From: a virus
Taxonomy: Duplodnaviria > Caudoviricetes
Length of the DNA stretch: 40,838 bases
Virus record (IMG/VR): IMGVR_UViG_3300032239_000780
Location: 1 to 40,838 of that record
Direction: 5' to 3' (one strand)
Part shown: positions 9,001 through 36,356 of the stretch, piece by piece
Numbering within the stretch: the first letter of the stretch is position 1
Layout of the letters: the number at the start of each line of letters is the position of its first letter
Program-made: the position numbers and the translations under genes
The notes under the pieces: generated by a model
Told to the model about the DNA's origin: nothing
Seen by the model: only the letters and a program-made list of their open reading frames with translations
Databases searched by the model: none

Positions 9001-9766
9001 GACTTACGTAGGCACCGCTGCATGGGGTTTGATGATTCCATATATGGCCGAATGGCTTGGTCGTCTGTTAGGTCGTGAGGACATAACAGGTGAAGAAGGA
9101 TTTGGTAAGTGGAGATTCGGTAACTGGAAGATGGCCGATAGCTCAGGTGTATGGGACTTCGTGAATACTTGGACATCTACGCATGAACGTATGGTCAAAG
9201 GGCAATTCCAGCCATTGCCAAAACCTGGTGATAAAAAATCCACAATAGATTGGCTGTCACAAGTAAGTTCGCCAACGTTGTATAAATTATCGCCAGTTAT
9301 CACAAAGTTGATTCAAACATATACAGGTGTCGATGTAATTGGACGGCCAGTTTACGAAAATGACTATGAATGGATGAAGTTCTACGAGAAATTCTTCTCA
9401 CCGTTGGTCAAGGAAAAGTTTGGTGTTGATCTTGGCGTCAAACCTTTTGTACGAGGTTTGTATACAACGTCGTTGTCGCCAACGTCGTGGACTGCTATGT
9501 ATAAAACGTATTACGAGGCAGACTGGCAAACACAAGGAAACATGCCGACATACGCTTCGGATCAAGCATTGAAGCAATTTGTTGCTGCTGCTTTAGGATC
9601 CAGAGCTGATTATGACCAACATGTACCACAAGCATTCCAAGGTCAATATCGTGCAATGCAAAAGATGAAGAGGTTGAACTATACGGGGCCAACAATGATT
9701 GACATCATCAACGACCCCAATAAGCACATCATTCCTCGAATGCTAACAGGTGAAGATAAGTTTTAA
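2..9766 (+). CDS. Giant virion/ejection-type (polyvalent-like) protein, 5'-truncated by the window edge
   Basis: The frame of ORF 263..9766 is open back to position 2 (STTIIAPASTAT...). It carries an HEVNH (HExxH) motif at 1025-1039, an Ala/Lys/Glu coiled-coil at about 2000-2250, and ART-PolyVal-like motifs at about 7190-7935. Confidence 0.75.
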   Translation, partial: STTIIAPASTATTGSPSSSSGKPTTETNAQPVTKPADKTENGPSAESTTQSETEKAQTPAEQPKSQEATPKEAGKSTPTVGDKSAKTVQPSEYTNWGYGEEFKQRIDDDRLPPEMRSDRRVKKNGQVNPYYQMTKGEEVTRQGNIGNIVAFPGIVSNTFKRLKTAFDLNVKDKDGNITKWNIEVKSGVKDKKFGQAEFKTLLMEEWGQSATQADVLSKYVDRWAVGWAKDIARLSGYNVNIIARALRIEGIDPPSGEAWQAWKSNYREQQVLNPTKANKELIAKLVTVFYTERLGGIAGLSAEQTASIGRPGATFTLQGNTGQIMHVALAMRGKMNYVTQVHEVNHLLVRSLYGPMYHEIAAAVRESYVISGNQQRNTRQITPDVEEQIVTSLTNALFKSDDVNKVLKEAFKEGGASNDHTLNALFNSIGQQMRESAGMEHSPLANDIANNPGWSVAFDKTKQTAASTPIVYQPSKGTYFDGTLKQDFNPAQDKSVSIIFKDSDGKEVESTVDPETLFIGQIETKLSEGAQKIVARWLGHWHDWTVQNIKEYVPEIKSESFDPVTNLDIVRKNVGYNWWRNVQEYKSKVSGLNDSKWTAERIRARAFYSYLGWLDFNNNDLATGYDNFLPYSDLSAQERIPRGTEKRPITITSAHDAADMANALTTLIEKEKADLEQKKKDDAAAAEQTQKDREAAEEKAKEDAEKAKAEQQAKYEAAKAKGEALAAAKKAKQDAENQAAGKTPEQTEELDKAIKLATSKLTTLNKQITVQVDKALKDFDGLLSAGKVDDARSLVQDVIAFIDGKASVATAEHKSIMDLGGILPESLINHGRNEQERVLTTTEQKIKDATEVKVEAAKQLSDITLDQLKKEAEENFDEDIFGAAGGEFSGMSTFIRSKDSTPDSNALVIPSTGKSWEDPTIKIINDHIERLTKTPEVNQERLKDKLLADLLQSRVASVKINVRIKDRALYSTDFQYVGGNPIRVSVNKIQPTEKASDIQQSTYANVASGLRQLFRSVRFTPNGIVITTNRDGYLQSVTMDAQSFYKEINREIERQSEAGITEYLRTTGQADSYYNRVMKLLRESDYNQNAVVDIMVSDSAYANWTKTKDRNYIDVKDLTVANSGLPQSMIADLKKITTSDELHKYIENNEHQLMASPMFLHIIRAKNDTNSIWRNKGASIPDVKWSTAQYDRINRDVNERLNVTSLKVDQNIDDADFVEPMAKASSNIERMMASSHLNGNDIDTEVGLTEDEKNIFDITKNLLSSDEYFDNLVDSRIRYVESVMQPKHTLDSLLDLATDRRKLVMMYKEDLAFAKTNGDKDAQDKALELVRAAEESLGNVNGAIKRRRDAARLQTQQDVDAMDNVFEVLSHINDDQIFKFFDPSNTEQRNKITRLANETAQGVPQLYGTLQKTGLPEILHEIKNRIEDHLDSNDEQSYMDSYRTYARALGNISNAFKAAHETYDRTREIPTLGNLTSRYVDFQSGLTVQEAVILDARRINMQAYRLGSNQSLSDSDLQALIGVGSAKYNDSLYLSPTEQAKNTEIIEQLTKQNNGVRPSQAALLAHPDYTNPATKLINRMNGLETNSLIGDSAKIRLGEETFKRHYNVLRDLFKILNTKVESKNGDKETTKSVDDILFAKGNHFTIAEKTWMLMNLVDDLTVGKIPPSSAKFKHVEAARDAMANGLGVDTPGVKTKGQLQQQAKNLRLFRKHVAESMVMPVQRDYVGTRPGGVVEVTTTTHKDTEAFAKAIIEFVVNKDKESILNQTVYSRNGFYQKLIKRINDAIKFDKNARKAFGNVRTVLSDAELFALADAYDTGDVKYTPWEKYAFVKTMIDKRDSAINSPLKEWLASNAKVKNALTVADLNTYLDQASELSEYDKRAFIGIFANSLSANMSHLKRYAMLTGHLPDVSDLKYISEVTGASVEKLQQEYEAVSSLFASVGYESLSNHIMGSQINVTHFNRTRESVHTHGIFVNASPAELQGIHAFTRQTWIDLESVLGEHYAITSGDPNDFTPGSYDALATPTRLRSAVMATKLADMIWGKQLSGRSIQGADRIALVSSKMPAANQSKSVNSKLASSMTPESRMAAHVHNTSESSMTKVLRDVLQGEGLSTINESLKRFTLGKFLTMYRRADGALPSQAEAFKAYEAEYARVILAAREEMVRSVNDTTYDSYDYNPAKKSDGSLDYSKVAVYDRILKRNVYEIDYVNGRVFEIEGVGKKAVRKPITIGKSNENGTTQLHQLLADALFVGASDSTKQKYMPVVLQSAVNTPSLNPVPAVYWHGRYRVNMQNDGVAASEPMYMSTLINKPKQVFDSVGSFDTDTENGYIKPVLQRWTMPDVTGNTRIRVDNEGLPYFDGAGYTVTTKEGHRSGLFTNLIANGLTKEKALSIYAMTEHPQFKNWVAGDLIENASLRRGTSFVDQGRVVDAATYSKVNKVIALHEFVKAVNKYMDSPTQNNLEMVEHTYDETEMGRHLTDSELKAKAKSIVSTQLDSLAYIKTATDLASSITTPEIDYHVKPYLAQRESEKDITTGKPFTSLVFEDTSNTFMNMDAPGLRTYDLGSGLGSNSNRRNQPYFVRVFNPYVHDAMENGVAWNDMQDIVKKAIADGHDGLVVTNLRPNLLNSERRNLVYTFDDSNVKPIDQMGDMTYSASVQATEAAVTPMFMNAPMWAPVTTKVIPVASSAVFVQPPKTAKEIAGDILGYSADVAQGVARFPLSLDFAFVGIQGAKALMGVLTGRPYDTWFAVKAFGLSMQGMMPNTSITLFGKKIGFDKLGRRAWLNVYQEMRKDPYFQLMRDMNVPLHFVNFEKNIETKRKQIYQESNGKVRYEDIKLDMLDFDERGNMTDYFERITPTTWIPLTGMFERQMSLNHDLLLFSQIKYQLQHNPMFKGLTNEQLSKRRDVKAMINFLAMSVGDVQYSTNDKVDAAAGRWGKFIAAAPRWYLSNVLMNPVVNPAVTALYKAVPAIRKYMGENHRGVGLYDYNLLENRALLKYQLLTYVGTAAWGLMIPYMAEWLGRLLGREDITGEEGFGKWRFGNWKMADSSGVWDFVNTWTSTHERMVKGQFQPLPKPGDKKSTIDWLSQVSSPTLYKLSPVITKLIQTYTGVDVIGRPVYENDYEWMKFYEKFFSPLVKEKFGVDLGVKPFVRGLYTTSLSPTSWTAMYKTYYEADWQTQGNMPTYASDQALKQFVAAALGSRADYDQHVPQAFQGQYRAMQKMKRLNYTGPTMIDIINDPNKHIIPRMLTGEDKF

Positions 9767-12186: not shown

Positions 12187-13005
12187 CTAGTCTTGCCAAA
12201 GCCTGTCCGCTTGACTAATAACGTTTTGTACAAGGTTTTGTTTGACCTCTGTTGCCATCGCTGTGCTCCAGTGTTTCCATAAAGCATTCATAGTGACCAT
12301 GTCTCGTCGGCCACCCCATTTCTCTACAAGATTGCGTGTTGCAAATGCAACCTGTTCTGGTGTTATGCTGGCAGCTTGCATCGACCGCAGTACGTGATGT
12401 GCATTTCTCCATTCACCAAGAAGAAATGCTGTCTGCATGAGCGCATCTGTAAAGATCACGGATCTGTACGCAAGGTACAAAGCTTTCGCAGGATCATCAT
12501 CAACAGGCATCTTGATGGAATCTCGTTTTGTCCCCTTCTTGGGGACTATAGGGGTATATTCTTCCTTCTGTATATTCTTTAATGTAATGAGGGGGTCTAT
12601 TTTTGCACCCTCCCCCCTGTCAATTTTTGCACCCTCCCCCGGTGCAGAATTTGCACCCTCCCCAAACCCCGTAGGTAGTATTTCATAAATGTTCGACGTC
12701 TGTCGTCCAGATGCAGTGTGACGAGCGCGACAAGATAACACCGTGTAGCCTCGAATTTCGCCCGTAGACAGACTTTTAATAGCGTTCTGGACTAATCTCT
12801 CACTCATACCGGTTTCCTGCGCTATAAGCGATACCGACGGGCAACACAGACCGTTCTGATCAGCATGCAACGCAATGCATGTCAAAACCATCCACTCACT
12901 CGGCGTAAAGTCTTTTAGACGAGAACGGAGTTCGTGACTTAGCATCACAAACCCCGTGTATTGTTTCCGTGTCCCGATCTGGGAACCGGACATTATTCCA
13001 ATCAT
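12187..13005 (-). CDS. Phage replication initiator (N-terminal winged HTH)
   Basis: CCPSVSLIAQETGMSERLVQNAIKSL HTH, GRQTSNIY motif and internal iteron-like repeats; start placed at MIGIMSG after a GAGGT SD. Confidence 0.8.
   Translation of the reverse strand: MIGIMSGSQIGTRKQYTGFVMLSHELRSRLKDFTPSEWMVLTCIALHADQNGLCCPSVSLIAQETGMSERLVQNAIKSLSTGEIRGYTVLSCRARHTASGRQTSNIYEILPTGFGEGANSAPGEGAKIDRGEGAKIDPLITLKNIQKEEYTPIVPKKGTKRDSIKMPVDDDPAKALYLAYRSVIFTDALMQTAFLLGEWRNAHHVLRSMQAASITPEQVAFATRNLVEKWGGRRDMVTMNALWKHWSTAMATEVKQNLVQNVISQADRLWQD
12599..12663. repeat. Three iteron-like direct repeats (TTTGCACCCTCCCC, 24-bp period), putative replication origin
   Basis: Copies at about 12599, 12623 and 12649 inside the initiator gene, next to an AT-rich stretch at about 12555-12590. 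Confidence 0.75.
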
Positions 13006-13007
13006 GT

Positions 13008-13577
13008 TTACCTCTTGTATGGGCACATTGGACAAAGCTGGACATCGTCTCGTGTCAAGCAAGCAGCAGTCTCTAGTACCTTTGACGCTTCTCGTTGAGA
13101 CAGGCCGACAGGTACAGGTACGGTGTCAGAGAGTTTAGGTTCGGTCAGTGGTGTACCACGTACGACCTCAGCCAAAACATCCACGCTCCAGCCCTTGATG
13201 GATGCTTCGTCCAGAATCCGTTTTTGTTCCGAAGGTTCGAGTTTACAGACAGCGCGATGATGCGTCCAGCTCAGATTTGGATTCCTGTTTTCAATGGGTA
13301 CTGATCGGGCAACCCAACTGTAGTTAGCTAGTGCCTGATATGAGTGACCGGTTACCTCCATTGCTTGGGTGTACTTCTCGCCAAAGCGTGAAGCACCATA
13401 GTTCAATGCGTCGCCAATACCCCATTGTGTGGCTACCTCAAGGCTACTAAGTGTAGCCATGAGTTGCTCCCATTGGTCGAACTGGAGATCGCCGGTAAAG
13501 GCGATCCCAGTGCGTGTGATTTCGACATTATTGCAGAGAAGGTCAACTCGTACGACCTTATTCTCCATTGTCTTCAT
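13008..13577 (-). CDS. LmbU-like DNA-binding protein
   Basis: WGIGDALNYG...YTQAMEVTGHSYQALANYSWVAR...LSWTHHRAV matches the LmbU-family pattern. Confidence 0.7.
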   Translation of the reverse strand: MKTMENKVVRVDLLCNNVEITRTGIAFTGDLQFDQWEQLMATLSSLEVATQWGIGDALNYGASRFGEKYTQAMEVTGHSYQALANYSWVARSVPIENRNPNLSWTHHRAVCKLEPSEQKRILDEASIKGWSVDVLAEVVRGTPLTEPKLSDTVPVPVGLSQREASKVLETAACLTRDDVQLCPMCPYKR

Positions 13578-14139
13578 CCTTCACTTTCAATCCGACAAAC
13601 TTGACTACTTCGTGCTCTGGTGTTACCTCACAACCATCAGGTCGAATGGCACTGTAGAGTAGTAAGTCATTGACAGTCTCAGGTTGAATTTTGCTGACTA
13701 GTACAGACTCAGTAATTTTTACGGCATCTGGTGCAAATGACCTCGCCCATTCAACAGCTGCTTCTTGATTTGTAAACTTGACTTTGGTTTTACTGGTGCG
13801 GAAAGTAATCTCGCCGTACTGGCCGGTATAGGTCTTCTTGTTTCGTGGCAAGAGTTGACGTGCAACGTCCGTAGCAGACGCTCCATACTTAAGTTCCATC
13901 CATGTGCGACGCGATTCAAGCTGTTTGATGCGCTTGGTAAACATGTCTTGAATGTGTTTGAGCTGTGCGGTTTCAGCAAGGATCAAGGAATCAATCTCAA
14001 GCATCTTCTTTTGAAGGATCCAGAGATCTTGCTCTGATTCAACGACGCCAGTCTCAAGCCATCCGTAGACACCCACTACCTCGCCGGTAGTGGGGTCAAT
14101 GAGCCATCCATTTTCACGGATCAGTTCTTCCTGTTCCAT
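13558..14139 (-). CDS. Gam / siphovirus Gp157-like host-nuclease inhibitor
   Basis: Coiled coil followed by KKTYTGQYGEITFRTS and AAVEWAR...VKITESVLVSKI; sits beside an annealing protein. Confidence 0.65.
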   Translation of the reverse strand: MEQEELIRENGWLIDPTTGEVVGVYGWLETGVVESEQDLWILQKKMLEIDSLILAETAQLKHIQDMFTKRIKQLESRRTWMELKYGASATDVARQLLPRNKKTYTGQYGEITFRTSKTKVKFTNQEAAVEWARSFAPDAVKITESVLVSKIQPETVNDLLLYSAIRPDGCEVTPEHEVVKFVGLKVKDEDNGE

Positions 14140-14762
14140 TATGCTGCTTCCTCATTCAATAGTTCATCGACAAGGGTATCTGCATCGGAGTATTCCTTCA
14201 TACGAACGACAGCAGACTGGAGATTCTCGGTTGTCATTGTGTCTGTGCCAAACATCCGACTGTAAACGCTTTTGGCGTCTGATGGCGCGATGTCGGTACC
14301 AAATAACCGTTTGCATTCATCCATAAAGAGGTTTGCAGCTACTTTATATGCAACCTTTGGATCATCAGCCTTAACTACGACAGGCGTGGCAGTCATTTGA
14401 TAGTTGCCGGGTATTGGAGCGTCAACAATGCGTTCGCCCTCGTCGAGTTCATCGAGAGCGTACTGTGTTCCGTAACCAGCCATTAGAAGCGCACGACCAA
14501 CAGCACCGGTCAGACTCTTTTCTTCAAAATCTGGAAAGTGTGCCTTGTGTTCGCGCTTGTGTCCAGTTGCAACAACACGTCCGTCAGGATCTGTAATACT
14601 GGCTCGCGACAGGCACGATGTTTCGTCCGTGCTAACGATCTCAGCGGTGATCCCCCAGCCGTCAGCGACTGGGTGGTCTTCGCGAAACAGTGCTATGCGC
14701 ACATACACGGGAGCATAGAGCTTGCCCCCTTTCATCTTCACCAAGTGGTCTTCAATTCTCAT
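14139..14762 (-). CDS. Rad52/Sak-like single-strand annealing protein
   Basis: YAPVYVRIALFREDHP...GRVVATGH...EKSLTGAVGRALLMAGYG. Confidence 0.65.
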   Translation of the reverse strand: MRIEDHLVKMKGGKLYAPVYVRIALFREDHPVADGWGITAEIVSTDETSCLSRASITDPDGRVVATGHKREHKAHFPDFEEKSLTGAVGRALLMAGYGTQYALDELDEGERIVDAPIPGNYQMTATPVVVKADDPKVAYKVAANLFMDECKRLFGTDIAPSDAKSVYSRMFGTDTMTTENLQSAVVRMKEYSDADTLVDELLNEEAA

Positions 14763-16957: not shown

Positions 16958-17322
16958 TCTGCGTCCTCTGTGTCATTCGTAAAGACCCACTCCCACCGGT
17001 ACGTGGTGTCACCAGCGATCAATGTAAGGCGATGCTGCACGATGATGCCGAACGTGTTTAGTTCTTGTGTTTCGTGAGAGTAGTCAAGGTCAGCGTCCTT
17101 CATGACACTGGAGTCTGGGTCTACCATGTCGATAATCATGCGAGCTACGACTTTAATGGCATCATTGTCGCGGAATCCGCTGATCATGATTGGTGCATGC
17201 TTAGCATTGGTGATGTAGCACCGAATACTGTGTAGTGAATCCTTCTTGTAGTCCTTGACTAAAGGATGCTGTACGACGAATGGAGCGATGTGTTGAAACG
17301 CCTCGTAAGTATTAACTTTCAT
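16954..17322 (-). CDS. Hypothetical protein (MKVNTYEAF...)
   Basis: AGAAAGG SD just upstream of the ATG at 17322. Confidence 0.65.
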   Translation of the reverse strand: MKVNTYEAFQHIAPFVVQHPLVKDYKKDSLHSIRCYITNAKHAPIMISGFRDNDAIKVVARMIIDMVDPDSSVMKDADLDYSHETQELNTFGIIVQHRLTLIAGDTTYRWEWVFTNDTEDAE

Positions 17323-17332
17323 TTGAACCTTT

Positions 17333-17366
17333 CTGTGCTGGTGTTTCGCCCCACCAGCAGGGCATT
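17333..17366 (-). repeat. 34-bp hairpin repeat, copy 1, upstream of SD
   Basis: ctgtgctggtgtttcgccccaccagcagggcatt, identical to 17796-17829. Confidence 0.9.
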
Positions 17367-17782: not shown

Positions 17783-17795
17783 GATTTGATACCTC

Positions 17796-17829
17796 CTGTG
17801 CTGGTGTTTCGCCCCACCAGCAGGGCATT
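17796..17829 (-). repeat. 34-bp hairpin repeat, copy 2, upstream of SD
   Basis: Identical to 17333-17366. Confidence 0.9.
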
Positions 17830-19866: not shown

Positions 19867-19976
19867 TATACTTACGTGCGGATGTAGGATCGCGTGGTGC
19901 CACCATCACGCCTCTATACCTACAGGGTGTGTGTGGGGTGCCATAGGCACAAAAAAAGGAGGGCTTTCGCCCTCCC
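19867..19976. repeat. Intergenic element copy R1 (partial: core, hairpin, terminator)
   Basis: tatacttacgtg...tgtaggatcg...ctatacctacaggg...ggcacaaaaaaaggagggctttcgccctccc. Confidence 0.8.
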
Positions 19977-19978
19977 GC

Positions 19979-20806
19979 CTAACGCCACAAAGCGCAGGAA
20001 CCGTGAGCCTTGATAACCATGTTGTTATCAGGATCCCCGTTGCATTGACCACATGTCTGGCATGTGACTTTACGCTTCGTCATAAGCGACGTGTCTGCTG
20101 GACATCGCTTGTGACGCATAGCGCGTAGCTGTTGCCACTCCATGTCGAAGGTCTTCTGTCCAAGGACGGTAAACGTCCCCCATCCGTTAGCACGTGCTTC
20201 AATTGCATCGGCGATGCTATCGCATGATGCCATGCACATGCCCTTGAAATCTTGTGCCCATGGTCTACGCCACTGGTGCGTGTATGCTGTGTGACCTTTG
20301 TCAATGGTCACATCCTGCAACAGCGTACGCCATACAGGATATGGAACCATGGCAGGATCCCCGTAAGCACCAACACGTGTTTGTCTGTCGAAGCGTAGAA
20401 TCATGTCGTTTACATCTTCGACGGCGACATCTGGCACGTTACCGTTTAGGTACGATTTCCACATCATGGTTGGCGCGTTTCCGACCAAAACATAGCAGGT
20501 GTTGACGTCTGCTGTTTCTTCCTTTCCTTTGTCGGTGATACGCGTACGCGTCATCTTACGATTCATGCAATCCCCGCAGATGCATGCATCGTTATATTCC
20601 AACGCTTCAAGCGGAGACATGTCGGTACGCATGATGTACGTTTGAACCATGTCGCCGGTTTTGTCGTTAGCTTTGTCGCTGTCACCTTTGATTTCAAGAC
20701 CGGTGACCCACAAAGCGATTGGAGAAACATTGTCCCACGGAGAAACGCCACGCCAAGCGATGGCTGTGTTGAAGGCAGGTTTCCCTGCGCGATTGTATAA
20801 ACGCAT
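19979..20806 (-). CDS. Cys-rich uncharacterised phage protein, possibly Fe-S / radical-SAM-like
   Basis: NDKTGDMVQTYI, ICGDC, CYV, RVGAYGDP, HTAYTHQW, CPA...CQTCGQC...HG; AGGAGG SD. Confidence 0.55.
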   Translation of the reverse strand: MRLYNRAGKPAFNTAIAWRGVSPWDNVSPIALWVTGLEIKGDSDKANDKTGDMVQTYIMRTDMSPLEALEYNDACICGDCMNRKMTRTRITDKGKEETADVNTCYVLVGNAPTMMWKSYLNGNVPDVAVEDVNDMILRFDRQTRVGAYGDPAMVPYPVWRTLLQDVTIDKGHTAYTHQWRRPWAQDFKGMCMASCDSIADAIEARANGWGTFTVLGQKTFDMEWQQLRAMRHKRCPADTSLMTKRKVTCQTCGQCNGDPDNNMVIKAHGSCALWR

Positions 20807-20987
20807 TTGTTTGATGCCTCCTATGCATCACCTATATTGCAATACGCCACGTCACACATCAACTACAACAAGACATATACTTACGTGTGGTGTGTAGTTC
20901 GTGTGGCACTGTTCACCACACTTATACCAGCGGGGAGGGTGTGGGCAGCTTTTTTGACAAAAAAAGGTGGGAGCCGAAGCCCCCACC
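20807..20987. repeat. Intergenic element copy R2
   Basis: SD hairpin, tgcaatac box, tatacttacgtg-N5-tgtagttcgtg, hairpin, minus-strand UUCG terminator. Confidence 0.9.
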
Positions 20988-20990
20988 GAG

Positions 20991-21479
20991 TTAGATCTTG
21001 ACGTCAGTCCTGCCATCGTGGTTTTTGATTTCGATGGCACCGCCATTTGCCTTGTGATACTTCATCATAAAGATGGATTCGCGCTGTGTTTCGCACTCCT
21101 TGCGCTTCTCATGCCATTCGGTGTACCGAGCAGACATGTAATCCTTCATCAAGCGTTCTTCCTTGTACATGGAGATGTATGATGTCGCCATGCCGTTGCG
21201 GAAAGCGTAATTGAGAATCAAACGCTGAAGATCGACAGCAAACTCGTGATTTTCATTGATTTCTGAAGTATTGACACGTTCGTCAATGGTCTCTTCAACA
21301 AAGCGATCAAGACCCTTGACGTCATCTGCTGTGATGATTTCGTCACCGAGAGCGTCATTGATCATGTCCTTGATATCAGCACGTGTGACAACAGTGTCGT
21401 CCATGTTTTCGGACATGTCGTGGAGTTTGGATGCGAAGGCTGAGAACATCTCAGCGAGAGCGATAATAAACTTAACCAT
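20991..21479 (-). CDS. Hypothetical protein (cassette gene, MVKFIIALAE...)
   Basis: Start set by the AGGAGG SD in R3; stop abuts the terminator in R2. Confidence 0.75.
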   Translation of the reverse strand: MVKFIIALAEMFSAFASKLHDMSENMDDTVVTRADIKDMINDALGDEIITADDVKGLDRFVEETIDERVNTSEINENHEFAVDLQRLILNYAFRNGMATSYISMYKEERLMKDYMSARYTEWHEKRKECETQRESIFMMKYHKANGGAIEIKNHDGRTDVKI

Positions 21480-21656
21480 TTTATGTCGCCTCCTAAGCGA
21501 CACTATATATGCAATACGTGACGTCACACGCGCATTCTAAACAGATATATACTTACGTGCTGTTTGTAGATCGTGCGACTGTTACCACCTCTACCTGTAC
21601 TGACGGGGTGAGCGTGGGATCCGACGAAAAAAAAGAGGAGGCCGAAGCCTCCCCCC
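21480..21656. repeat. Intergenic element copy R3
   Basis: Same motif order as R2. Confidence 0.9.
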
Positions 21657-21658
21657 TG

Positions 21659-22003
21659 TTAGTCAGTCAAGATAAGGTATGCAAACGGTTGCATTATCTC
21701 AACCTTAAGGTATGCATCGTGGATTTGATTCCACACTGCAATCCACTTATCTTTGTCAAAGTCGTCGTTCTCATGAGCAACCCATGCGACATTGTCGTGT
21801 GTCATTTGTTCAAGGAACCATTGAAAACCAACAAGTGTTCCGCAGTGCATTCCGTCAACGGTGATGTCAAGTGTGTCTTCTGCGATAGACATCATAAGGG
21901 ATGGACGCAGAAAGGTTTCAGCGTCTGGTGAATACAGATTGTCGAACATCTCGCACAGATTGCTGAGCGTGATGGTCTGTAACGGCTCTAGTAAAAACTT
22001 CAT
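21659..22003 (-). CDS. Hypothetical protein (cassette gene, MKFLLEPL...)
   Basis: SD in R4; terminator in R3. Confidence 0.75.
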   Translation of the reverse strand: MKFLLEPLQTITLSNLCEMFDNLYSPDAETFLRPSLMMSIAEDTLDITVDGMHCGTLVGFQWFLEQMTHDNVAWVAHENDDFDKDKWIAVWNQIHDAYLKVEIMQPFAYLILTD

Positions 22004-22179
22004 AACATTGTCGCCTCCTAGCGACACTATATATGCAATACAGCACGTCACACGCTACTTGTAAAGATACATATACTTACGTGCGCGATGTAGATCGTGC
22101 AGCTATACCACTCTCCTGTACTTGCGGGTTGGGAGTGAGGTGCTAGGCACAAAAAAAGGTGGGAGCCGAAGCCCCCACC
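22004..22179. repeat. Intergenic element copy R4
   Basis: Same motif order; terminator identical to that of R2. Confidence 0.9.
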
Positions 22180-22182
22180 AAG

Positions 22183-22812
22183 TTACCAACCTCGTTCGTT
22201 TTGGTTAGCACACATGTCGCAGACATATCCTTTGTATTTGTCCTTCGGAGTGAGGACGTTTTCACGTCCGCATTGTCCGCATGGCAGATTACGTGGATTG
22301 CTGGACGATGATGCTCGCAACGCGCTTACACCACCTGGGTCGGCAAAGTCGCTGTAGTCATCGTCATCGTATGGGATATCGTCGATGTCGCATTCTTCAT
22401 CCTCATCCTCATCCTCAATCTCAGGGTCGATGTTGTCACCGTCCCACTGAAAGCAGTCTGGCATGTACGATGATGGGTTTTCATTGAGGATGCCCTCCCA
22501 TTCGCTTAGTAACTCAACGCAACCGCAATCACCACCAATGCAGTACTGAATGGATTCCACTTCAGAGCATCCGTCGCATGACGTTGTCGGAGTGCGAGAG
22601 CAGTCATGGAATACGCCGATGTCAAGCACTAGATGTGCGTCAATGCAGGATGCTGCATCTTCAACGTCTTTGTACAGGTTTGCTGCGTACGTCTTACAGA
22701 CGCAAGTGATGTTTTTCATCGTGTGCCATCCAAGGCGTTCCGCTTCCATGGTGAACCATGCCTTAGCGGATGCAGTGAAGGCGTCCAACGCCTTCTGTTG
22801 TGTCTCTGTCAT
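22183..22812 (-). CDS. Cys-rich acidic protein with C-terminal CxxC...CxxC zinc ribbon (cassette gene)
   Basis: CGQC...CDMC and a poly-D/E linker; SD in R5. Confidence 0.75.
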   Translation of the reverse strand: MTETQQKALDAFTASAKAWFTMEAERLGWHTMKNITCVCKTYAANLYKDVEDAASCIDAHLVLDIGVFHDCSRTPTTSCDGCSEVESIQYCIGGDCGCVELLSEWEGILNENPSSYMPDCFQWDGDNIDPEIEDEDEDEECDIDDIPYDDDDYSDFADPGGVSALRASSSSNPRNLPCGQCGRENVLTPKDKYKGYVCDMCANQNERGW

Positions 22813-22987
22813 AACAATGTAGCCTCCTATGCTACACAATATATGCAATATGGTACACAGCCCACCTATTACAAAGATACATATACTTACGTGGGCCGTG
22901 TAGATCGTGGGCCAACACTACGCTCCCTATACTGACGGGGTGCGAGTGGGGTTTGATAAAGGAAAAGTGGGGACCGAAGTCCCCACC
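22813..22987. repeat. Intergenic element copy R5
   Basis: Same motif order. Confidence 0.9.
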
Positions 22988-22989
22988 CG

Positions 22990-23691
22990 TTACAAAGTAA
23001 CTTTGCAACGACATCCCGGCACAGGGCACTGCAACCATGGAGTGGCTGCTTTGATGATTTTGAAGTCATCGCTCTTATAGTTGCCTTCGTCGTTGTGACC
23101 GTACCAATGCCACGTGTCATCGGTATAGAATCCGTGACCACCAGAGCATCGCAGGTCGCAACACGCTACGTCAAACCATGCATCCTCGTCCTGTAATGTA
23201 GCGATTACAGGATAAGAGTAACCACCGCGAGCATCGCAACCGTTATGCGTTTGGACTGCATAATACGTTACGTCATCCCACGTATACTCTACCGAGCAAT
23301 TGTGATACAGGACACCTTGACTTAGGAAGCTTTCGCCATTGTACGTATTGTGTGACCCGATATTGCTTGCACCAAGTGTCTTGGTAAAGAATGCATCTAT
23401 CACATCAAACCATGATGCATCCGGCATTGTTTCTGCAACAGCGTGAAGGGCGGTTGTCAGGTCATTATCGATGGTAAAGAACGTACACAATGCATCTACA
23501 ACATTGCGTGTTATATCCCACTCATACGATTTGATATCTAGCCGGAAATCCCATTCTACATCTGCAAGCGTAAGACCTGCGTTTCGTTCGTGGTGGCGTC
23601 CGTATGCTCCGCCAGAGTCGAGAAAGTGCCGACCCGTGTCGTTTTTTATCATTGCGAGCCATTGCTCGCGGTCTGTCTTATGTTCTGCCAT
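22990..23691 (-). CDS. Hypothetical phage protein (cassette gene, MAEHKTDREQ...)
   Basis: NDTGRHFLDSGGAYGRHHERN and HNGCDARGGYS motifs; GGAGGA SD. Confidence 0.75.
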   Translation of the reverse strand: MAEHKTDREQWLAMIKNDTGRHFLDSGGAYGRHHERNAGLTLADVEWDFRLDIKSYEWDITRNVVDALCTFFTIDNDLTTALHAVAETMPDASWFDVIDAFFTKTLGASNIGSHNTYNGESFLSQGVLYHNCSVEYTWDDVTYYAVQTHNGCDARGGYSYPVIATLQDEDAWFDVACCDLRCSGGHGFYTDDTWHWYGHNDEGNYKSDDFKIIKAATPWLQCPVPGCRCKVTL

Positions 23692-23887
23692 GCTTGGCAA
23701 TCCTCCGAGTAAGTATCGGCTTTCGCCGTACACTTTATATGCAATACACCACGCGATGCGCCTATTAGAATAATATATATACTTACGTGCTGTGTGTAGA
23801 TCGTGCGGATCCATTACTCACAGCTATACTTGCGGGGCGTGAGTGGGCGTTTTGGCACAAAAAAAAGAGAGGACCGAAGTCCCCTCT
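23692..23887. repeat. Intergenic element copy R6
   Basis: Same core; the leader has a GAAA-tetraloop hairpin instead of the SD hairpin. Confidence 0.9.
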
Positions 23888-23890
23888 AAG

Positions 23891-24316
23891 TTAGCAGTTT
23901 TCCTTTACCATTCCGCCCCGTGGTCCAACCTTAATGATGAAGTCAACGAATCCGTCATCATATCCAATGTGACATTCAAAACGTGCATCATCATCATCAA
24001 GGCATGGATACATTTGCTGGTCATTTAACCTGCGCCATAATGCATTCTTGATTGCTGGAATACTCTTGAAATATTCAGGTTCACCAATGCTATATGAAGA
24101 ACCGCCAATGAAGTAACAGTAGTATCCACGCAAATCACTCTGACGAAAAACGCAATCGTGTTGTGTGTCATAAATATACGCAGGGTATAACTTATAACAA
24201 CGACCACGGTCACGATTGACTTCTCTGACTTTTATAGAGGCTTGATTAAGCGAGTTATACTCACCAAGCCACTCCAAACGACCGAGCGCATTTCTGCGCT
24301 GAACAACATACCGCAT
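23891..24316 (-). CDS. Hypothetical protein (cassette gene)
   Basis: SD in R7; terminator in R6. Confidence 0.75.
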   Translation of the reverse strand: MRYVVQRRNALGRLEWLGEYNSLNQASIKVREVNRDRGRCYKLYPAYIYDTQHDCVFRQSDLRGYYCYFIGGSSYSIGEPEYFKSIPAIKNALWRRLNDQQMYPCLDDDDARFECHIGYDDGFVDFIIKVGPRGGMVKENC

Positions 24317-24495
24317 GATATGTAGCCTCCAATGCTACACCATATATGCAATACACCACGTCACACGCCTATTCTAAAGATATATATACTTACGAGGCGT
24401 ATGTAGATCGAGGCCCAATAGCAACACATCTATACCGGCGGGGTGTGCGTGTGCATTTTTTGGCACAAAAAAAAGAGGGCGGTCGGTACGCCCTC
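24317..24495. repeat. Intergenic element copy R7
   Basis: Same motif order; CGAGGC variant in both direct-repeat halves. Confidence 0.9.
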
Positions 24496-24501
24496 TTTAG
24501 A

Positions 24502-24903
24502 TTACATATCGCCCTCAAACTTAGCGATGTAGTCGTCAAGTTCCCTTGCAATCACTACACATTCCTGCGTTTTGTTTGCAAGTTGCTCACGCAATGCTTT
24601 TTTCTCATCGCGTAGTTCCTGTGCTTCCTTGACAGAGTCGCGATACAACGCTTTGTATGTTTCCATACTACGACGCTGATTCTCAGCATCACTCTTAGCG
24701 ACCTCAAAGCATCCACGCCACGCTTTGTTTTCCTTCAATAGTGTTATTATCCTGTTCCAATCTTTTTCAGACCGAAGCGTGTAGATATCCAAAGAGCGTT
24801 GCAAGGAATCAGAATAATGTTTCTGTTCCATATACTTTCCAACAGCGATAACAGTGACGAGAAGCATAGCGGAGCAAAGCACCGCAAGAATCATAACTAA
24901 CAT
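24502..24903 (-). CDS. Membrane-anchored coiled-coil protein (cassette gene)
   Basis: N-terminal hydrophobic helix followed by a heptad-rich region; AGAAAGG SD. Confidence 0.75.
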   Translation of the reverse strand: MLVMILAVLCSAMLLVTVIAVGKYMEQKHYSDSLQRSLDIYTLRSEKDWNRIITLLKENKAWRGCFEVAKSDAENQRRSMETYKALYRDSVKEAQELRDEKKALREQLANKTQECVVIARELDDYIAKFEGDM

Positions 24904-25083
24904 ACTCAAACCTTTCTTTCTACCGACACTTTATATGCAATACCGTACGTTACACGCCTATTCTAAAGATATATATACTTACCTGGTGCATGTAGATCCT
25001 GAGCAGATAACAACACAGCTATACTGACGGGGTGCGGTGGGGCAACTTTTGGCACAAAAAAAGAGGGCGGTCGGTGCGCCCTC
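24904..25083. repeat. Intergenic element copy R8
   Basis: Same motif order; CCTG variant in both direct-repeat halves. Confidence 0.9.
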
Positions 25084-25090
25084 TTCAATA

Positions 25091-25303
25091 TTATTTACCG
25101 CACCTGCAATAGCAAACACATGGTTCGCTATAACAGAAACAAAAGTGGGAGTTCCAGTCAAACTCCCTTGGTTGCCCGCAGAATCTGCAGTTACCGCGAC
25201 GTTGACCATTCCGAAAGCGCTGACAAAACGCCTTGTAGCGCTTGTTTGTCATGCTTTTTGGCTTGCGTTGAAATCGATGCTTTAGGAGATGGTCGATGTT
25301 CAC
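25091..25303 (-). CDS. 70-aa basic Cys-rich protein (GTG start)
   Basis: GGAGG 7 nt before a GTG that overlaps the upstream TGA; CRFC...CFC...CVCYCRC. Confidence 0.6.
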   Translation of the reverse strand: MNIDHLLKHRFQRKPKSMTNKRYKAFCQRFRNGQRRGNCRFCGQPREFDWNSHFCFCYSEPCVCYCRCGK

Positions 25304-25440
25304 TTTTTGTCCTCCCAGATTCCTGTGAGAGCAAGCACTGCCATGAATGGCGCGCCAATAACGCTCCAGTGTGTGTAAATACACACAACTGTAACGATAA
25401 CGACTAATAAGGTCATCATGACCTTGCTAAACTTTTTCAT
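25300..25440 (-). CDS. 46-aa two-helix membrane protein (not in the ORF track)
   Basis: MKKFSKVMMTLLVVIVTVVCIYTHWSVIGAPFMAVLALTGIWEDKK; same leader as the 24903 gene. Confidence 0.75.
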   Translation of the reverse strand: MKKFSKVMMTLLVVIVTVVCIYTHWSVIGAPFMAVLALTGIWEDKK

Positions 25441-25618
25441 ACTCAAACCTTTCTTTCTACCGACACTTTATATGCAATACGCTACGCTGAACGCCTATTC
25501 TAACAATATATATACTTACGTGGCTAGTGTAGATCGTGGCCAAACAACACTCTCGCTATACCGACGGGGCGTGAGTGGGCGTTTTGGCACAAAAAAGGGG
25601 GAGGGCTTTCGCCCTCCC
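25441..25618. repeat. Intergenic element copy R9
   Basis: Same motif order; terminator like that of R1. Confidence 0.9.
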
Positions 25619-25620
25619 GG

Positions 25621-26169
25621 TTAGTTGGCTGAAAACATGTCAGCCGAGTGTAGAATGCACTGCAAAACAGTTGCGTTACGTCCATTCACAGCGCAGTCCT
25701 TTGGTGTTCCCCAGTCAGGGAAACCATGATGCGCTAACATCACCGTTGCAATGCGGTTTTCCATTGCTTCGGTAATTAGTCCGTACTTTGCGTTAGTACG
25801 TACCATCATTAGAACCGATTTTGTGACATGCCCCATGTCGAAGTCGCCGTATGTAATAACACCTTCTTTGTCAATGACATACTCGGATGTTTTAGCTACG
25901 TCATGAAGTAACGATGCAACGATAAGAATATCCATATCGTAGTCGGAATATTCTACGTTGCATTCCAGCATTGACACTGCGGTTTCTGCAACCTCAATAG
26001 TGTGCTGGAATAATCCACTGCGATAGTTATGATGGTACTTTTTTGCGCCGGGACATTCAAAGAAGTACACAGGCAGTGTACGGTCTACGAGTTCACGCAA
26101 GTTAGAATCAGCGATGATGTTTTTGAGCGCAACAAACCGCTCCGACAAGTCAAAGATACAAGGTTCCAT
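25621..26169 (-). CDS. HD-domain phosphohydrolase, YhaM/Cbf1-like HD domain without OB-fold
   Basis: PGAKKYHHNYRSGLFQHTIEV, LLHDVAK, GH, AHHG..WG, LHSADMFSA. Confidence 0.85.
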   Translation of the reverse strand: MEPCIFDLSERFVALKNIIADSNLRELVDRTLPVYFFECPGAKKYHHNYRSGLFQHTIEVAETAVSMLECNVEYSDYDMDILIVASLLHDVAKTSEYVIDKEGVITYGDFDMGHVTKSVLMMVRTNAKYGLITEAMENRIATVMLAHHGFPDWGTPKDCAVNGRNATVLQCILHSADMFSAN

Positions 26170-26314
26170 ATGATATAGCCTCCTTGGCTACACTTTATAT
26201 GCAATACGCTACACGCTACACCTATTCTAAAGATATATATACTTACGTGTTGCATGTAGTTCGTGTTGCAACATCACCTCTCCGTATACTTGCGGGGGGT
26301 AGTGATGCATTTTT
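26170..26314. repeat. Intergenic element copy R10 (first in transcription order; no upstream terminator)
   Basis: SD hairpin tagcc-tcctt-ggcta, tgcaatac box, core, hairpin. Confidence 0.9.
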
Positions 26315-26315
26315 A

Positions 26316-26386
26316 CACCCCCTCCACCCCCCTCCTCTCCCCTCCCCCAGCTCCCACCCCCACCCCACATGGCAAGCCTCCCCCCT
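26316..26386 (-). other. C-rich tract (G-run rich on the minus strand) at the divergence point
   Basis: cccctccacccccctcctctcccctcccccagctcccacccccacccc. Confidence 0.7.
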
Positions 26387-26522
26387 GTTATTTTTTAAAA
26401 AATGGTAACAGCCACCCACAGATCATCTTCCCAAAACCCTCTTTCTCCCGCAGGAGAATTATAATCACAACCCCAACAACTTATGATAATATACCTACGT
26501 GCTTAGCACTAAAGGAATAACA

Positions 26523-26756
26523 ATGAAGAATAATAGATTGCGTGAGGAGTATGATCAGCTCCTTTCCGACATGTTGTTGATGCAGTACCGTGTTGAGGTT
26601 TTCCGTAGGAAGATGCAGGTTGCTGAGTCGTCGATTGCAATTGGTAGTCGTTTGCAGACCAGTGTTGAGGACGTTGTGAATGAGTTGGTAAAGATTAGTA
26701 ACCATGAGCAGTTAGAGCATAAGCCTGTGGTTGGTTTATCTTGGTGGTGGAAGTGA
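26523..26756 (+). CDS. Hypothetical coiled-coil protein
   Basis: AAGGA SD before the ATG at 26523; GATAAT -10-like box upstream. Confidence 0.65.
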   Translation: MKNNRLREEYDQLLSDMLLMQYRVEVFRRKMQVAESSIAIGSRLQTSVEDVVNELVKISNHEQLEHKPVVGLSWWWK

Positions 26757-27031
26757 GCTTAAATAACGCTAGGTCTATTGGCGCTGTACGTGCTAGGGTC
26801 AAGAATAATTCTGGTGGCCCACCAAAGAAGCGGGTGTACTTACTGGATCATATTCCTGAAGAGATTCAGGAAGTGATTTGGATTTGGTACAAGGAGGGTC
26901 GGAGTCGTCGTCAGATGTCTCAGATGTTGATTGACATGGGTGTTCCAAGTCCTCCAATGACGGTGCCTTGGGGTGATAACGCTATTGCTACGGTTGTATA
27001 TAAGTACAAAGCAAAAGAAGCAGTACAATAA
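26753..27031 (+). CDS. Small DNA-binding protein resembling the recombinase DNA-binding domain of large serine recombinases
   Basis: IWIWYKEGRSRRQMSQMLIDMGVPSP...WGDNAIATVV; GTGA coupling. Confidence 0.5.
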   Translation: MSLNNARSIGAVRARVKNNSGGPPKKRVYLLDHIPEEIQEVIWIWYKEGRSRRQMSQMLIDMGVPSPPMTVPWGDNAIATVVYKYKAKEAVQ

Positions 27032-29328: not shown

Positions 29329-29370
29329 GTATACTACCTACGTTTGAATAACTAACAACTAACCAAATGG

Positions 29371-29400
29371 AAAGCCTAGCAGCACAGTGCTAGGCTTTTT
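29371..29400 (+). terminator. Intrinsic terminator
   Basis: aaagcctagca-gcacag-tgctaggctttt. Confidence 0.8.
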
Positions 29401-35603: not shown

Positions 35604-36356
35604 ATGTCAGAAATAGTAACAATTGATGGTAAGCGATACCGTATAACGGATAACAGAAAAGTGTTGCTATGCAATGGAACAACAGTTGATCAAAATGGAC
35701 CAAGACCGTGCAATGCTATGGCTCTTAAAGGGCGCGATTATTGTGCTTATCATGGCGGTAGGTCTCTCATAGGTCCAGCTCATCCTAATTTTATTACAGG
35801 CCTTGAATCTAAAAACTACAAAAGATTTAGCAATGTAGGTAAAGATCTTTTAGCTAAAATCGAAACATTACGTGAAGACCCAGATCTATTTAGTCTTAAA
35901 GATGATGCAGCATTTATTACTGCTATCATGGATGCAAGAGCTGAAGCTGCAGCTGAAGGCGTTGGTATTGATCAATACAAGAAGGTTCAAGCAGCATACT
36001 CTCTCGCGCATAGTAAGTTGGGGTCACCAGACTTCATTGACTCGTTTGAGCAAATTGGAGATGTATTGACCGAAACATTAGATCAATACGCTGCATCTAG
36101 AGACGTTATTGAGTTAATTGAAAAACGCGTCGGTATTGTAGAAGCTGAGCATAAAATGATGCATCAGAAAGCCTATACACTTGAAGTGGATCAAGCCTTT
36201 AGTTTAGCAATGCAAGTGCTGGACATTGTTCGTGAAAATGTACACAACGCCGAAGAACTTATTGCTATTCGAGCTGGAGTGCAACGATTACTTAAGGTTT
36301 ATAAGAGCGAAGACGAAGAAGTCATTGATGCGGAGGTCGTGAATGAATCTGCGTGA
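35604..36356 (+). CDS. Putative terminase small subunit (HGGxS motif)
   Basis: C...CNAMALKGRDYCAYHGGRS; directly upstream of TerL. Confidence 0.65.
   Translation: MSEIVTIDGKRYRITDNRKVLLCNGTTVDQNGPRPCNAMALKGRDYCAYHGGRSLIGPAHPNFITGLESKNYKRFSNVGKDLLAKIETLREDPDLFSLKDDAAFITAIMDARAEAAAEGVGIDQYKKVQAAYSLAHSKLGSPDFIDSFEQIGDVLTETLDQYAASRDVIELIEKRVGIVEAEHKMMHQKAYTLEVDQAFSLAMQVLDIVRENVHNAEELIAIRAGVQRLLKVYKSEDEEVIDAEVVNESA

What the first reader, a model, noticed from the sequence alone, without database searches (positions are those of the whole stretch)
20884..26270. Covarying direct repeats exactly 16 bp apart inside each element
Two 9-nt slots flank a constant TGTAG(A/T)T, and the second copies the first within each element: R2 cgtgtggtg/cgtgtggca, R3 cgtgctgtt/cgtgcgact, R4 cgtgcgcga/cgtgcagct, R5 cgtgggccg/cgtgggcca, R6 cgtgctgtg/cgtgcggat, R7 cgaggcgta/cgaggccca, R8 cctggtgca/cctgagcag, R9 cgtggctag/cgtggccaa, R10 cgtgttgca/cgtgttgca. 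Even departures from CGTG occur in both halves (R7, R8). Hairpin pairing or a fixed protein consensus does not explain this. Possible explanations are copy-specific address codes, alternative pairing with a third strand, or a dual-guide RNA layout loosely like TIGR or bridge RNAs. No Nop-domain or IS110 protein is visible here.
Basis: partly seen in the sequence, partly recalled or inferred. Interest (0 to 1): 0.82.

Follow-up and report, generated by a model that had tools for sequence, protein, structure and literature searches.

The report
Self-matching sites in phage gene cassettes
In an uncultured freshwater phage, nine small genes are each fronted by a copy of a 180-base stop-and-start element in which two short sites 16 bases apart resemble each other more than chance allows; the element is likely a swappable promoter cassette of a known kind, and the self-match is loose, missing in one group of relatives, and likely kept by local DNA copying, not by a guide RNA.

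Summary
All nine slot pairs, the spacer and the 16-bp offset are as written. The within-copy match is real: 6.56 of 9 letters against 5.19 by permutation (p=4e-4), and offset 16 is the top signal of a scan over all offsets. It is weaker than claimed. The excess lies in slot positions 2-6 only. In 12 related phage genomes it holds in three groups, partly at offsets 12-20, and is absent in a fourth (20 modules, p=0.97). Between orthologous modules one slot often changes alone (22 single-slot against 17 double changes).

The slots lie inside a reiterated intergenic module: terminator of the previous gene, two TAC-N3-CG boxes 44-48 bp apart, an AT-rich -10-like site with no -35, then the start of one leftward gene. 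Relatives swap and replace genes at these modules, as with PeSL cassettes of T4-type phages. I found no third strand, no tandem target in the phage genomes, and no Nop, IS110, integrase or resolvase family.

Best reading: a PeSL-like, probably activator-dependent early promoter cassette whose two tandem sites are occasionally re-copied locally. That last step is inferred and untested; the cause of the match stays open.

The parts
20884..20908 (+). R2 slot A 20884-20892, spacer 20893-20899, slot B 20900-20908 (box 1 at 20878-20885, box 3 at 20925-20932)
21556..21580 (+). R3 slot A, spacer, slot B (box 1 at 21550, box 3 at 21598)
22080..22104 (+). R4 slot A, spacer, slot B (box 1 at 22074, box 3 at 22119)
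22890..22914 (+). R5 slot A, spacer, slot B (box 1 at 22884, box 3 at 22930)
23786..23810 (+). R6 slot A, spacer, slot B (box 1 at 23780, box 3 at 23827)
24393..24417 (+). R7 slot A, spacer, slot B (box 1 at 24387, box 3 at 24433)
24982..25006 (+). R8 slot A, spacer, slot B (box 1 at 24976, box 3 at 25022)
25519..25543 (+). R9 slot A, spacer, slot B (box 1 at 25513, box 3 at 25559)
26246..26270 (+). R10 slot A, spacer, slot B (box 1 at 26240, box 3 at 26287); followed by a C-rich tract instead of a terminator
19869..19976 (+).
21477..21657 (-). One whole module as an example (R3), read on the minus strand: terminator 21657-21632, box 3, slot B, spacer, slot A, box 1, AT-rich -10-like site near 21502-21509, hairpin around the ribosome-binding site, ATG at 21479
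20966..25618 (-). Eight intrinsic-terminator-like hairpins with T runs, one at the end of each leftward cassette: 20987-20966, 21657-21632, 22179-22158, 22988-22965, 23887-23866, 24498-24472, 25086-25060, 25618-25599 (a ninth at 19976-19957)
   Evidence: 22 terminator-like sites found vs 6.0 +/- 2.3 in shuffles
19979..20806 (-). Cassette gene, 275 aa (phrog_2554; weak DUF7227)
20991..21479 (-). Cassette gene, 162 aa, no family
21659..22003 (-). Cassette gene, 114 aa; order swapped with the next gene in four relatives
22183..22812 (-). Cassette gene, 209 aa, acidic and cysteine-rich
22990..23691 (-). Cassette gene, 233 aa (phrog_11344)
23891..24316 (-). Cassette gene, 141 aa
24502..24903 (-). 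Cassette gene, 133 aa, hydrophobic N-terminus
25300..25440 (-). Cassette gene, 46 aa, hydrophobic
25621..26169 (-). Cassette gene, 182 aa, HD domain
26492..26499 (+). Lone TAC-N3-CG box at the -10/+1 region of the first rightward gene (start 26523); present at this place in 9 of 11 genomes shown

Best explanation
The two slots lie inside a ~180-bp element repeated in front of each of nine leftward genes, and this element is likely a PeSL-like terminator-promoter cassette boundary whose slots are probably tandem, degenerate protein-binding sites that are likely re-matched from time to time by local strand slippage. Shown: each gene ends in its own terminator-like hairpin; the module has fixed geometry (two TAC-N3-CG boxes 44-48 bp apart, the spacer at a fixed place); an AT-rich -10-like site lies about 40 bp from box 1 with no -35 match; relatives carry the same frame with genes swapped and replaced. 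Inferred: host RNA polymerase starts at that -10 and, lacking a -35, needs a factor bound at box 1, the spacer with slot B, and box 3 (about -55, -70 and -100); the same box at the start of the first rightward gene would let that factor repress it. Inferred, weakest step: both slots begin with CGWG, so a nascent strand can misalign by about 16 nt and copy a few following letters before realigning. This would give identity that is highest next to the seed and fades by position 7, a drifting register, and no match where slot B has lost the seed. Inferred: cassettes are shuffled by recombination between modules, possibly through the phage's Rad52-like protein.
For: One module per leftward gene, with terminators. 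98 modules in 13 genomes; box spacing 46 in 58, 47 in 23, 45 in 13, 44 and 48 in 2 each. -10 match 4.67/6 vs 3.14 in controls, TAnnnT in 46 of 98 vs 7%; best -35 match 2.26 vs 2.52 in controls. The rightward promoter has a normal TTGCAY...TATAST form in four relatives, so the host likely uses sigma70-type promoters. Gene order f3-f2 in the window and three relatives, f2-f3 in four; 30 gene clusters among 98 cassettes, an upper bound because some singleton ORF calls are wrong. A close strain carries a 58-nt stretch identical to the window's R4 upstream region in front of its R7-type slots. Excess identity is confined to slot positions 2-6; register 12-20 in relatives; no match in the group whose slot B starts YGT(C/T); 22 single-slot vs 17 double column changes between orthologs, 7 of the 17 matched in both states. 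Three small HTH proteins are conserved in the relatives searched. PeSL anatomy and shuffling: PMC4122927, PMC2839356.
Against: No binding protein, start site or slippage event is shown. No module with a 16-bp duplication or deletion was found in 13 array loci, and slot B is followed by spacer-like TGTA in 0 of 98 modules, so copying would have to be short or one-directional. The match arose in three separate groups (p 0.006, 0.004, 0.0007 for any register on distinct types), which is a lot for a rare mutational process without selection. A-spacer-B is the segment best conserved with its gene (0.87 identity between orthologs vs 0.74-0.82 for the other segments), which hints at selection on it. 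A +strand hairpin around box 3 has some support and is not explained by a pure DNA-site model. PeSLs have near-consensus -35/-10 boxes; this module lacks the -35. The Rad52-like call is below threshold (Foldseek E 0.017; tied with dsRBD-type folds).
Confidence: 0.5

Rival explanations
1. The match itself is selected: something compares the two slots (a dimeric factor that needs like half-sites, or a slipped or strand-swapped DNA structure), so each promoter carries its own internal code.
For: Match in three separate groups; 7 column changes between orthologs are matched in both states; A-spacer-B travels with its gene in 21 of 24 comparisons, also across a gene-order swap.
Against: 22 single-slot changes between orthologs and one more in a close strain (loose end at 22081); register drift of 12-20; absent in 20 modules of one group; no tyrosine integrase or resolvase in 5 records searched each; no match to neighbouring modules.
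Confidence: 0.17
2. The slots are arms of a folded single strand: A pairs with B, and palindromic cores such as GGCC or TGCA make a hairpin look like a direct repeat.
For: Own A:B duplexes are more stable than swapped ones over 82 modules (z -2.5 to -3.3); in the group without the direct repeat z is -1.7 to -2.4.
Against: No A:B complement passes the family-wise threshold; no pairing signal in the L117/L107/L169 group, where purine-rich direct repeats persist; longest reverse-complement match not significant in any group (p 0.07-0.39); no fixed-register covariation; no Rfam match.
Confidence: 0.12
3. Each module makes a ~75-nt +strand small or antisense RNA from box 1 (TATACT as a -10) through the slots to the hairpin around box 3 and a short T run.
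For: TATACT is invariant in the window's group; the hairpin around box 3 beats half-shuffled controls on the + strand (Stouffer z -4.2 to -5.9 in three groups) and own arms pair better than swapped ones (z -3.0 RNA, -4.3 DNA over 82 modules).
Against: TATACT is not kept in other groups (TACCTA, TACCGA, TACCTG); no hairpin signal in the L113/L167 group; little fixed-register pairing; T run missing in several modules; it would not by itself explain the A/B match.
Confidence: 0.1
4. The element is a dual-guide RNA unit like TIGR or a bridge RNA, used by a protein encoded elsewhere.
For: Slot A is 9 nt, ends at TG, and in five relatives follows CTA, CGA or CAA, which are in the box C set used for stem-loop TIGR arrays (bioRxiv 10.64898/2026.09.09.750476, passages).
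Against: Slot B has neither box; the window has TTA; 4 of 9 letters are near-constant; units are split by genes and terminators, not arrayed; no Nop or IS110 family in 5 relatives; no tandem target in six phage genomes.
Confidence: 0.03
5. The match is an accident of shared ancestry or composition among few modules.
For: Only about 10 distinct module types per group; the fixed-offset test is not significant in L117, L113 or L167 alone (p 0.09, 0.48, 0.43).
Against: Offset 16 is the top signal over all offsets and passes the family-wise null in the window alone; it survives collapsing to distinct types and recurs in separate groups.
Confidence: 0.05

Closest known systems
PeSL / PmSL cassettes of T4-type phages (PMC2839356, passages; PMC4122927, text parts 1-2 of 3)
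   Same: Repeated intergenic terminator-plus-promoter elements, one per small variable gene, with ribosome-binding site and start codon at the 3' end; genes gained, lost and swapped at them. PmSLs have a regulator box in place of the -35.
   Different: Here the phage has a P22-type portal and is not T4-like. A ~110-bp fixed-geometry tract (two TAC-N3-CG boxes, spacer, two slots) lies between terminator and -10. There is no sigma70 -35. The term 'direct repeat' does not occur in PMC2839356's main text. Mini-circles are not shown here.
Activator-dependent phage promoters (T4 MotA middle promoters as cited in PMC4122927; Mu Mor/C and phi29 p4, recalled)
   Same: A -10 without a -35, with conserved upstream boxes; small phage HTH proteins as candidates.
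   Different: Boxes lie further upstream (about -55 to -105) and come as a pair 46 bp apart; no activator is identified.
TIGR-Tas tandem-spacer guide RNAs (PMC12045711, passages)
   Same: Two 9-nt variable slots separated by a short constant stretch; slot A is followed by TG.
   Different: No Nop protein, no box C/D around slot B, slots similar to each other and partly constant, units separated by genes, no target found.
Integron attC cassette arrays (recalled)
   Same: Single-gene cassettes with a repeated boundary element and changing order.
   Different: Each cassette has its own promoter-like site and terminator; no tyrosine integrase found; no conserved fixed-register hairpin.

Membership tests
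PeSL-type cassette boundary | Repeated intergenic element with an upstream terminator-like stem-loop | tested here: met
   Nine terminator-like hairpins, one per cassette; repeats
PeSL-type cassette boundary | Ribosome-binding site and start codon at the element's 3' end | tested here: met
   (GGAG motif within 20 nt of the start in 7 of 9 window modules; two have AGAAAGG)
PeSL-type cassette boundary | Sigma70-like -35 and -10 boxes | tested here: not met
   -10 enriched, -35 not (2.26 vs 2.52 control); closer to the PmSL form with a regulator box
PeSL-type cassette boundary | Gene gain, loss and exchange at the elements between related phages | tested here: met
   order swap and replacements; upstream-segment exchange
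PeSL-type cassette boundary | Mini-circles formed by recombination between elements | not testable with these tools
   One contig joint skips exactly one cassette (24457 to 25047) but may be an assembly path
TIGR-Tas | Nop-domain Tas gene beside the array | tested here: not met
   PF01798: 0 of 5 relatives, four of them at least 90% complete; control rang in 5 of 14 genomes; none among 44 window proteins
TIGR-Tas | [quoted passage not shown] | tested here: not met
   Slot B follows GAT/AAT/GTT and is not followed by a conserved TG/CG
TIGR-Tas | Contiguous array of units | tested here: not met
   Units are 520-900 bp apart, split by genes and terminators
TIGR-Tas | Tandem target matching spacers A and B | tested here: inconclusive
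   None in six phage genomes; host genome unknown and not searched
TIGR-Tas | Processed 36-nt or stem-loop RNA | not testable with these tools
   Only contigs were available for the one RNA library
IS110 bridge RNA | IS110 recombinase gene | tested here: not met
   PF02371: 0 of 5 relatives; control rang in 12 of 14
Integron cassette array | Tyrosine integrase | tested here: not met
   PF00589: 0 of 5 relatives; control rang in 14 of 14
N4-type virion-polymerase hairpin promoter | Phage-encoded virion RNA polymerase | tested here: inconclusive
   3167-aa ORF has no Pfam, PHROGs or NCBIfam family and no relevant PDB hit, and no DxDxD motif; the PF00940 search had no positive control

The most novel reading that the evidence does not exclude
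Each early promoter of this phage group carries a private two-copy code that is read by comparing slot A with slot B, through a slipped or strand-swapped DNA structure or a +strand RNA, so that selection acts on the match and not on the sequence: a self-referential regulatory or recombination switch with no known precedent.
Probability: 0.12. Interest if true: 0.75.

Novelty: new variant of a known kind. Interest (0 to 1): 0.36.

Why it matters
The cassette principle is known from T4-type phages; this shows it in an unrelated freshwater phage group with a longer, fixed-geometry control tract. The within-copy match is either a visible record of very local concerted evolution inside a regulatory element, or a constraint nobody has described. 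One single-slot versus double-slot mutation test would tell these apart.

Tried and rejected
Rfam: six weak matches, all far below gathering scores. Third strand: no partner for A or B among upstream, P or Q segments, in a reverse-complement window scan, or in adjacent genes, leaders and terminators (largest z 3.8, a direct B-to-terminator-region match in one group, among 96 tests). Tandem guide targets in six phage genomes: none. Long hairpin centred on box 1: significant in the window alone (Stouffer z -3.5) but not in any group. Column-pair covariation gave no helix (first attempt, timed out). Palindromic 4-mers are not strongly avoided in the window (observed/expected 0.76-1.16), so a restriction-site reading was dropped. 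Scan of bacterial and archaeal genomes: one isolated match in an unrelated MAG, taken as chance. Host not identified. RNA library X3: its 9.3-kb contig spans most of the array and carries the same variants as DNA run X2; contigs cannot show strand, start or level, and the depth difference (106 leftward vs 15 rightward, equal in X2) is not used. Atlas search of the 77-aa ORF gave only generic helical matches; the 96-aa ORF could not be searched there. Foldseek gave no match at E<=0.001 for either model. Scans with DnaB and the 275-aa gene added one array genome already held and distant homologues whose flanks I did not analyse. Resemblances to lux, tra, NrdR, LexA, Chi and KOPS motifs were recalled, were partial or not conserved across groups, and were not tested against any library. 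Literature: searches returned no description of this element; subscription papers and bioRxiv supplements were not searchable. Rows dropped: L175 (same sequences as L117) from all counts; L109 and L170 (near copies of L013) from the 82-module tests; R1-type modules from all statistics.


Full report
Setting. The window is a 40.8-kb virus record, estimated 65% complete, with a P22-type portal, a terminase, DnaB, a replication initiator and a Mu Gam-like gene. The runs that hold it are labelled metagenome or freshwater metagenome; no cultured relative is close and the host is unknown. Between 19.9 and 26.3 kb lie nine short leftward genes, each ending in a terminator-like hairpin and each preceded by a copy of one element.

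The observation. All nine slot pairs, the spacer and the 16-bp offset are as written. Own A/B identity is 6.56 of 9 against 5.19 when B slots are permuted, p=0.0004. A scan of every 7-nt window pair in the module puts offset 16 at these slots first and above the family-wise null (z 4.9 vs 3.8). The excess is confined to slot positions 2-6; positions 7-9 are near chance. A tenth module at 19869 does not fit the pattern.

Relatives. Pattern and protein scans gave 106 modules in 14 loci including the window. One locus repeated another, leaving 98 modules in 13 genomes in four groups. At fixed offset 16 the match is significant in the window's group and in L117/L107/L169 (p=0.0002 pooled), not in L113/L167 (p=0.34), and absent in L110/L115/L112 (2.45 vs 2.72, p=0.97). 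Allowing any register, the first three groups are significant (p<=0.0001) and the fourth is not (p=0.94), with offsets from 12 to 20. Collapsing to 7-12 distinct types per group gives p=0.006, 0.004, 0.0007 and 0.85. In the fourth group slot B starts YGT(C/T), not CGWG. Between orthologous modules of the window's group, 22 distinct column differences affect one slot and 17 affect both, 7 of them matched in both states. The match is real, recurrent and soft.

Anatomy. On the minus strand each module reads: terminator of the previous gene, box 3, a 14-17-nt linker, slot B, spacer, slot A, box 1, about 40 bp, an AT-rich -10-like site, usually a hairpin around the ribosome-binding site, start codon. 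Boxes 1 and 3 share TAC-N3-CG on the + strand and lie 44-48 bp apart in all 98 modules, 46 in 58. The -10 is enriched (4.67/6 vs 3.14; TAnnnT 46 of 98 vs 7%) and the -35 is not (2.26 vs 2.52). The first rightward promoter has a normal -35/-10 form in four relatives and carries a lone box at its -10/+1 region in 9 of 11 genomes. One-box and three-box versions occur in relatives. This fits, by inference, a DNA-level array of protein sites upstream of a promoter that needs an activator. Candidates are three small HTH proteins conserved in the relatives searched: a LuxR-type, a Cro/C1-type, and a 96-aa protein whose model matches HTH domains, best the G20C small terminase (Z 8.0, rmsd 1.2, 53 residues). 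None is shown to bind.

Shuffling. Cassette genes fall into 30 clusters among 98, an upper bound because some singleton ORF calls are wrong; two genes are in opposite order in the window and in four relatives. A-spacer-B follows the gene it precedes in 21 of 24 comparisons. A close strain has the window's R4 upstream 58 nt in front of R7-type slots. One contig skips exactly one cassette (24457 to 25047, 16 shared letters), which may be an assembly path. Window modules share exact stretches of median 14.5 and at most 43 nt (36 pairs). The 207-aa gene beside the Gam-like gene is possibly a Rad52-type annealase (top Foldseek row RAD52, E 0.017; tied with dsRBD folds). No tyrosine integrase or resolvase was found (0 of 5 each). 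This is the behaviour described for PeSLs (PMC4122927, text parts 1-2; PMC2839356, passages).

Third strand: none inside the module or in adjacent sequence. Hairpin: own A:B duplexes are modestly more stable than swapped ones (z -2.5 to -3.3, 82 modules), but not in the group with purine-rich repeats. Dual guide: TIGR needs a Nop protein and boxes around both spacers (PMC12045711, passages); there is no Nop or IS110 family in 5 relatives, slot B has no boxes, and no tandem target exists in six phage genomes. Slot A does follow CTA, CGA or CAA in five relatives and ends at TG, a partial likeness only. Address code: slots do not match neighbours and change singly. A +strand hairpin around box 3 has moderate support in three of four groups but little fixed-register pairing, so a small antisense RNA is not excluded.

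Mechanism of the match. I commit to occasional local copying between two CGWG-seeded sites by strand misalignment (general knowledge of templated mutation; search 72 seen as a listing only). It predicts the gradient away from the seed, the drifting register and the loss where the seed is gone. Against it, no 16-bp duplication or deletion was seen in 13 array loci, slot B is never followed by spacer-like letters (0 of 98), and the match recurs in three groups. I put the cassette reading near 0.85 and the copying step near 0.5 to 0.6, about 0.5 jointly; a selected match is the main rival.

Verdict. A new variant of a known kind of element, with one real, soft and unexplained internal pattern. 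Interest 0.36.

Noticed in passing
window 26310-26400: C-rich tract with a conserved core CCC..TGGCAA(G/T)CC in the window and 10 relatives, at the switch between leftward and rightward genes; six viral or metagenome contigs begin 95-180 bp upstream of the next gene. Possible packaging site or genome end, or simply an assembly break.
   Followed up: partly
window 26741-27031 (+): Conserved 96-aa HTH protein with no family; best fold match is the G20C small terminase DNA-binding domain (Z 8.0), weak Pfam Recombinase hit in 1 of 9 homologues. A separate HGGxSTG gene at 35604-36356 lies before the large terminase.
   Followed up: partly
window 26523-26756 (+): 77-aa ORF with a near-invariant core SDMLLMQYRVEVFRR, found in 12 viral and 9 metagenome loci; helical, no family.
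   Followed up: partly
window 29329-29400 (+): A -10 (TATACT) with a box directly behind it, then about 60 nt and a terminator-like hairpin with a T run: a possible small RNA or 8-codon ORF upstream of the Cro/C1-type gene.
   Followed up: no
window 263-9766 (+): 3167-aa ORF with no Pfam, PHROGs, NCBIfam or relevant PDB match; likely an ejected virion protein by size and position.
   Followed up: partly
window ~12590-12680; L107 2830-2960; L188 ~13450-13560: Iteron-like repeats (GGGGAGGGTGCA..) lie inside the initiator gene in the window but directly beside module R1 in several relatives.
   Followed up: no
window 17321-17366 and 17784-17829: A 46-nt repeat (91% identical) forming a hairpin just upstream of two leftward gene starts.
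   Followed up: no
L117:3272, L113:4221, L169:2009, L107:2975: R1-type modules with a longer insert in which the spacer TGTAGG has a perfect or near-perfect complement CCTACA about 20-25 nt downstream; in L113 slot B is a 9-bp inverted copy of box 1 plus slot A.
   Followed up: partly
L115 12253-13557; L110 11591-12991: A 434-466-aa ORF whose start resembles a DNA cytosine methyltransferase (by eye, not tested) occurs in the group that lacks the A/B match, where slot B often starts TGT instead of CGT.
   Followed up: no
window 14139-14762 (-): 207-aa protein beside the Gam-like gene, possibly a Rad52/Sak-type annealase; structural match below threshold.
   Followed up: partly
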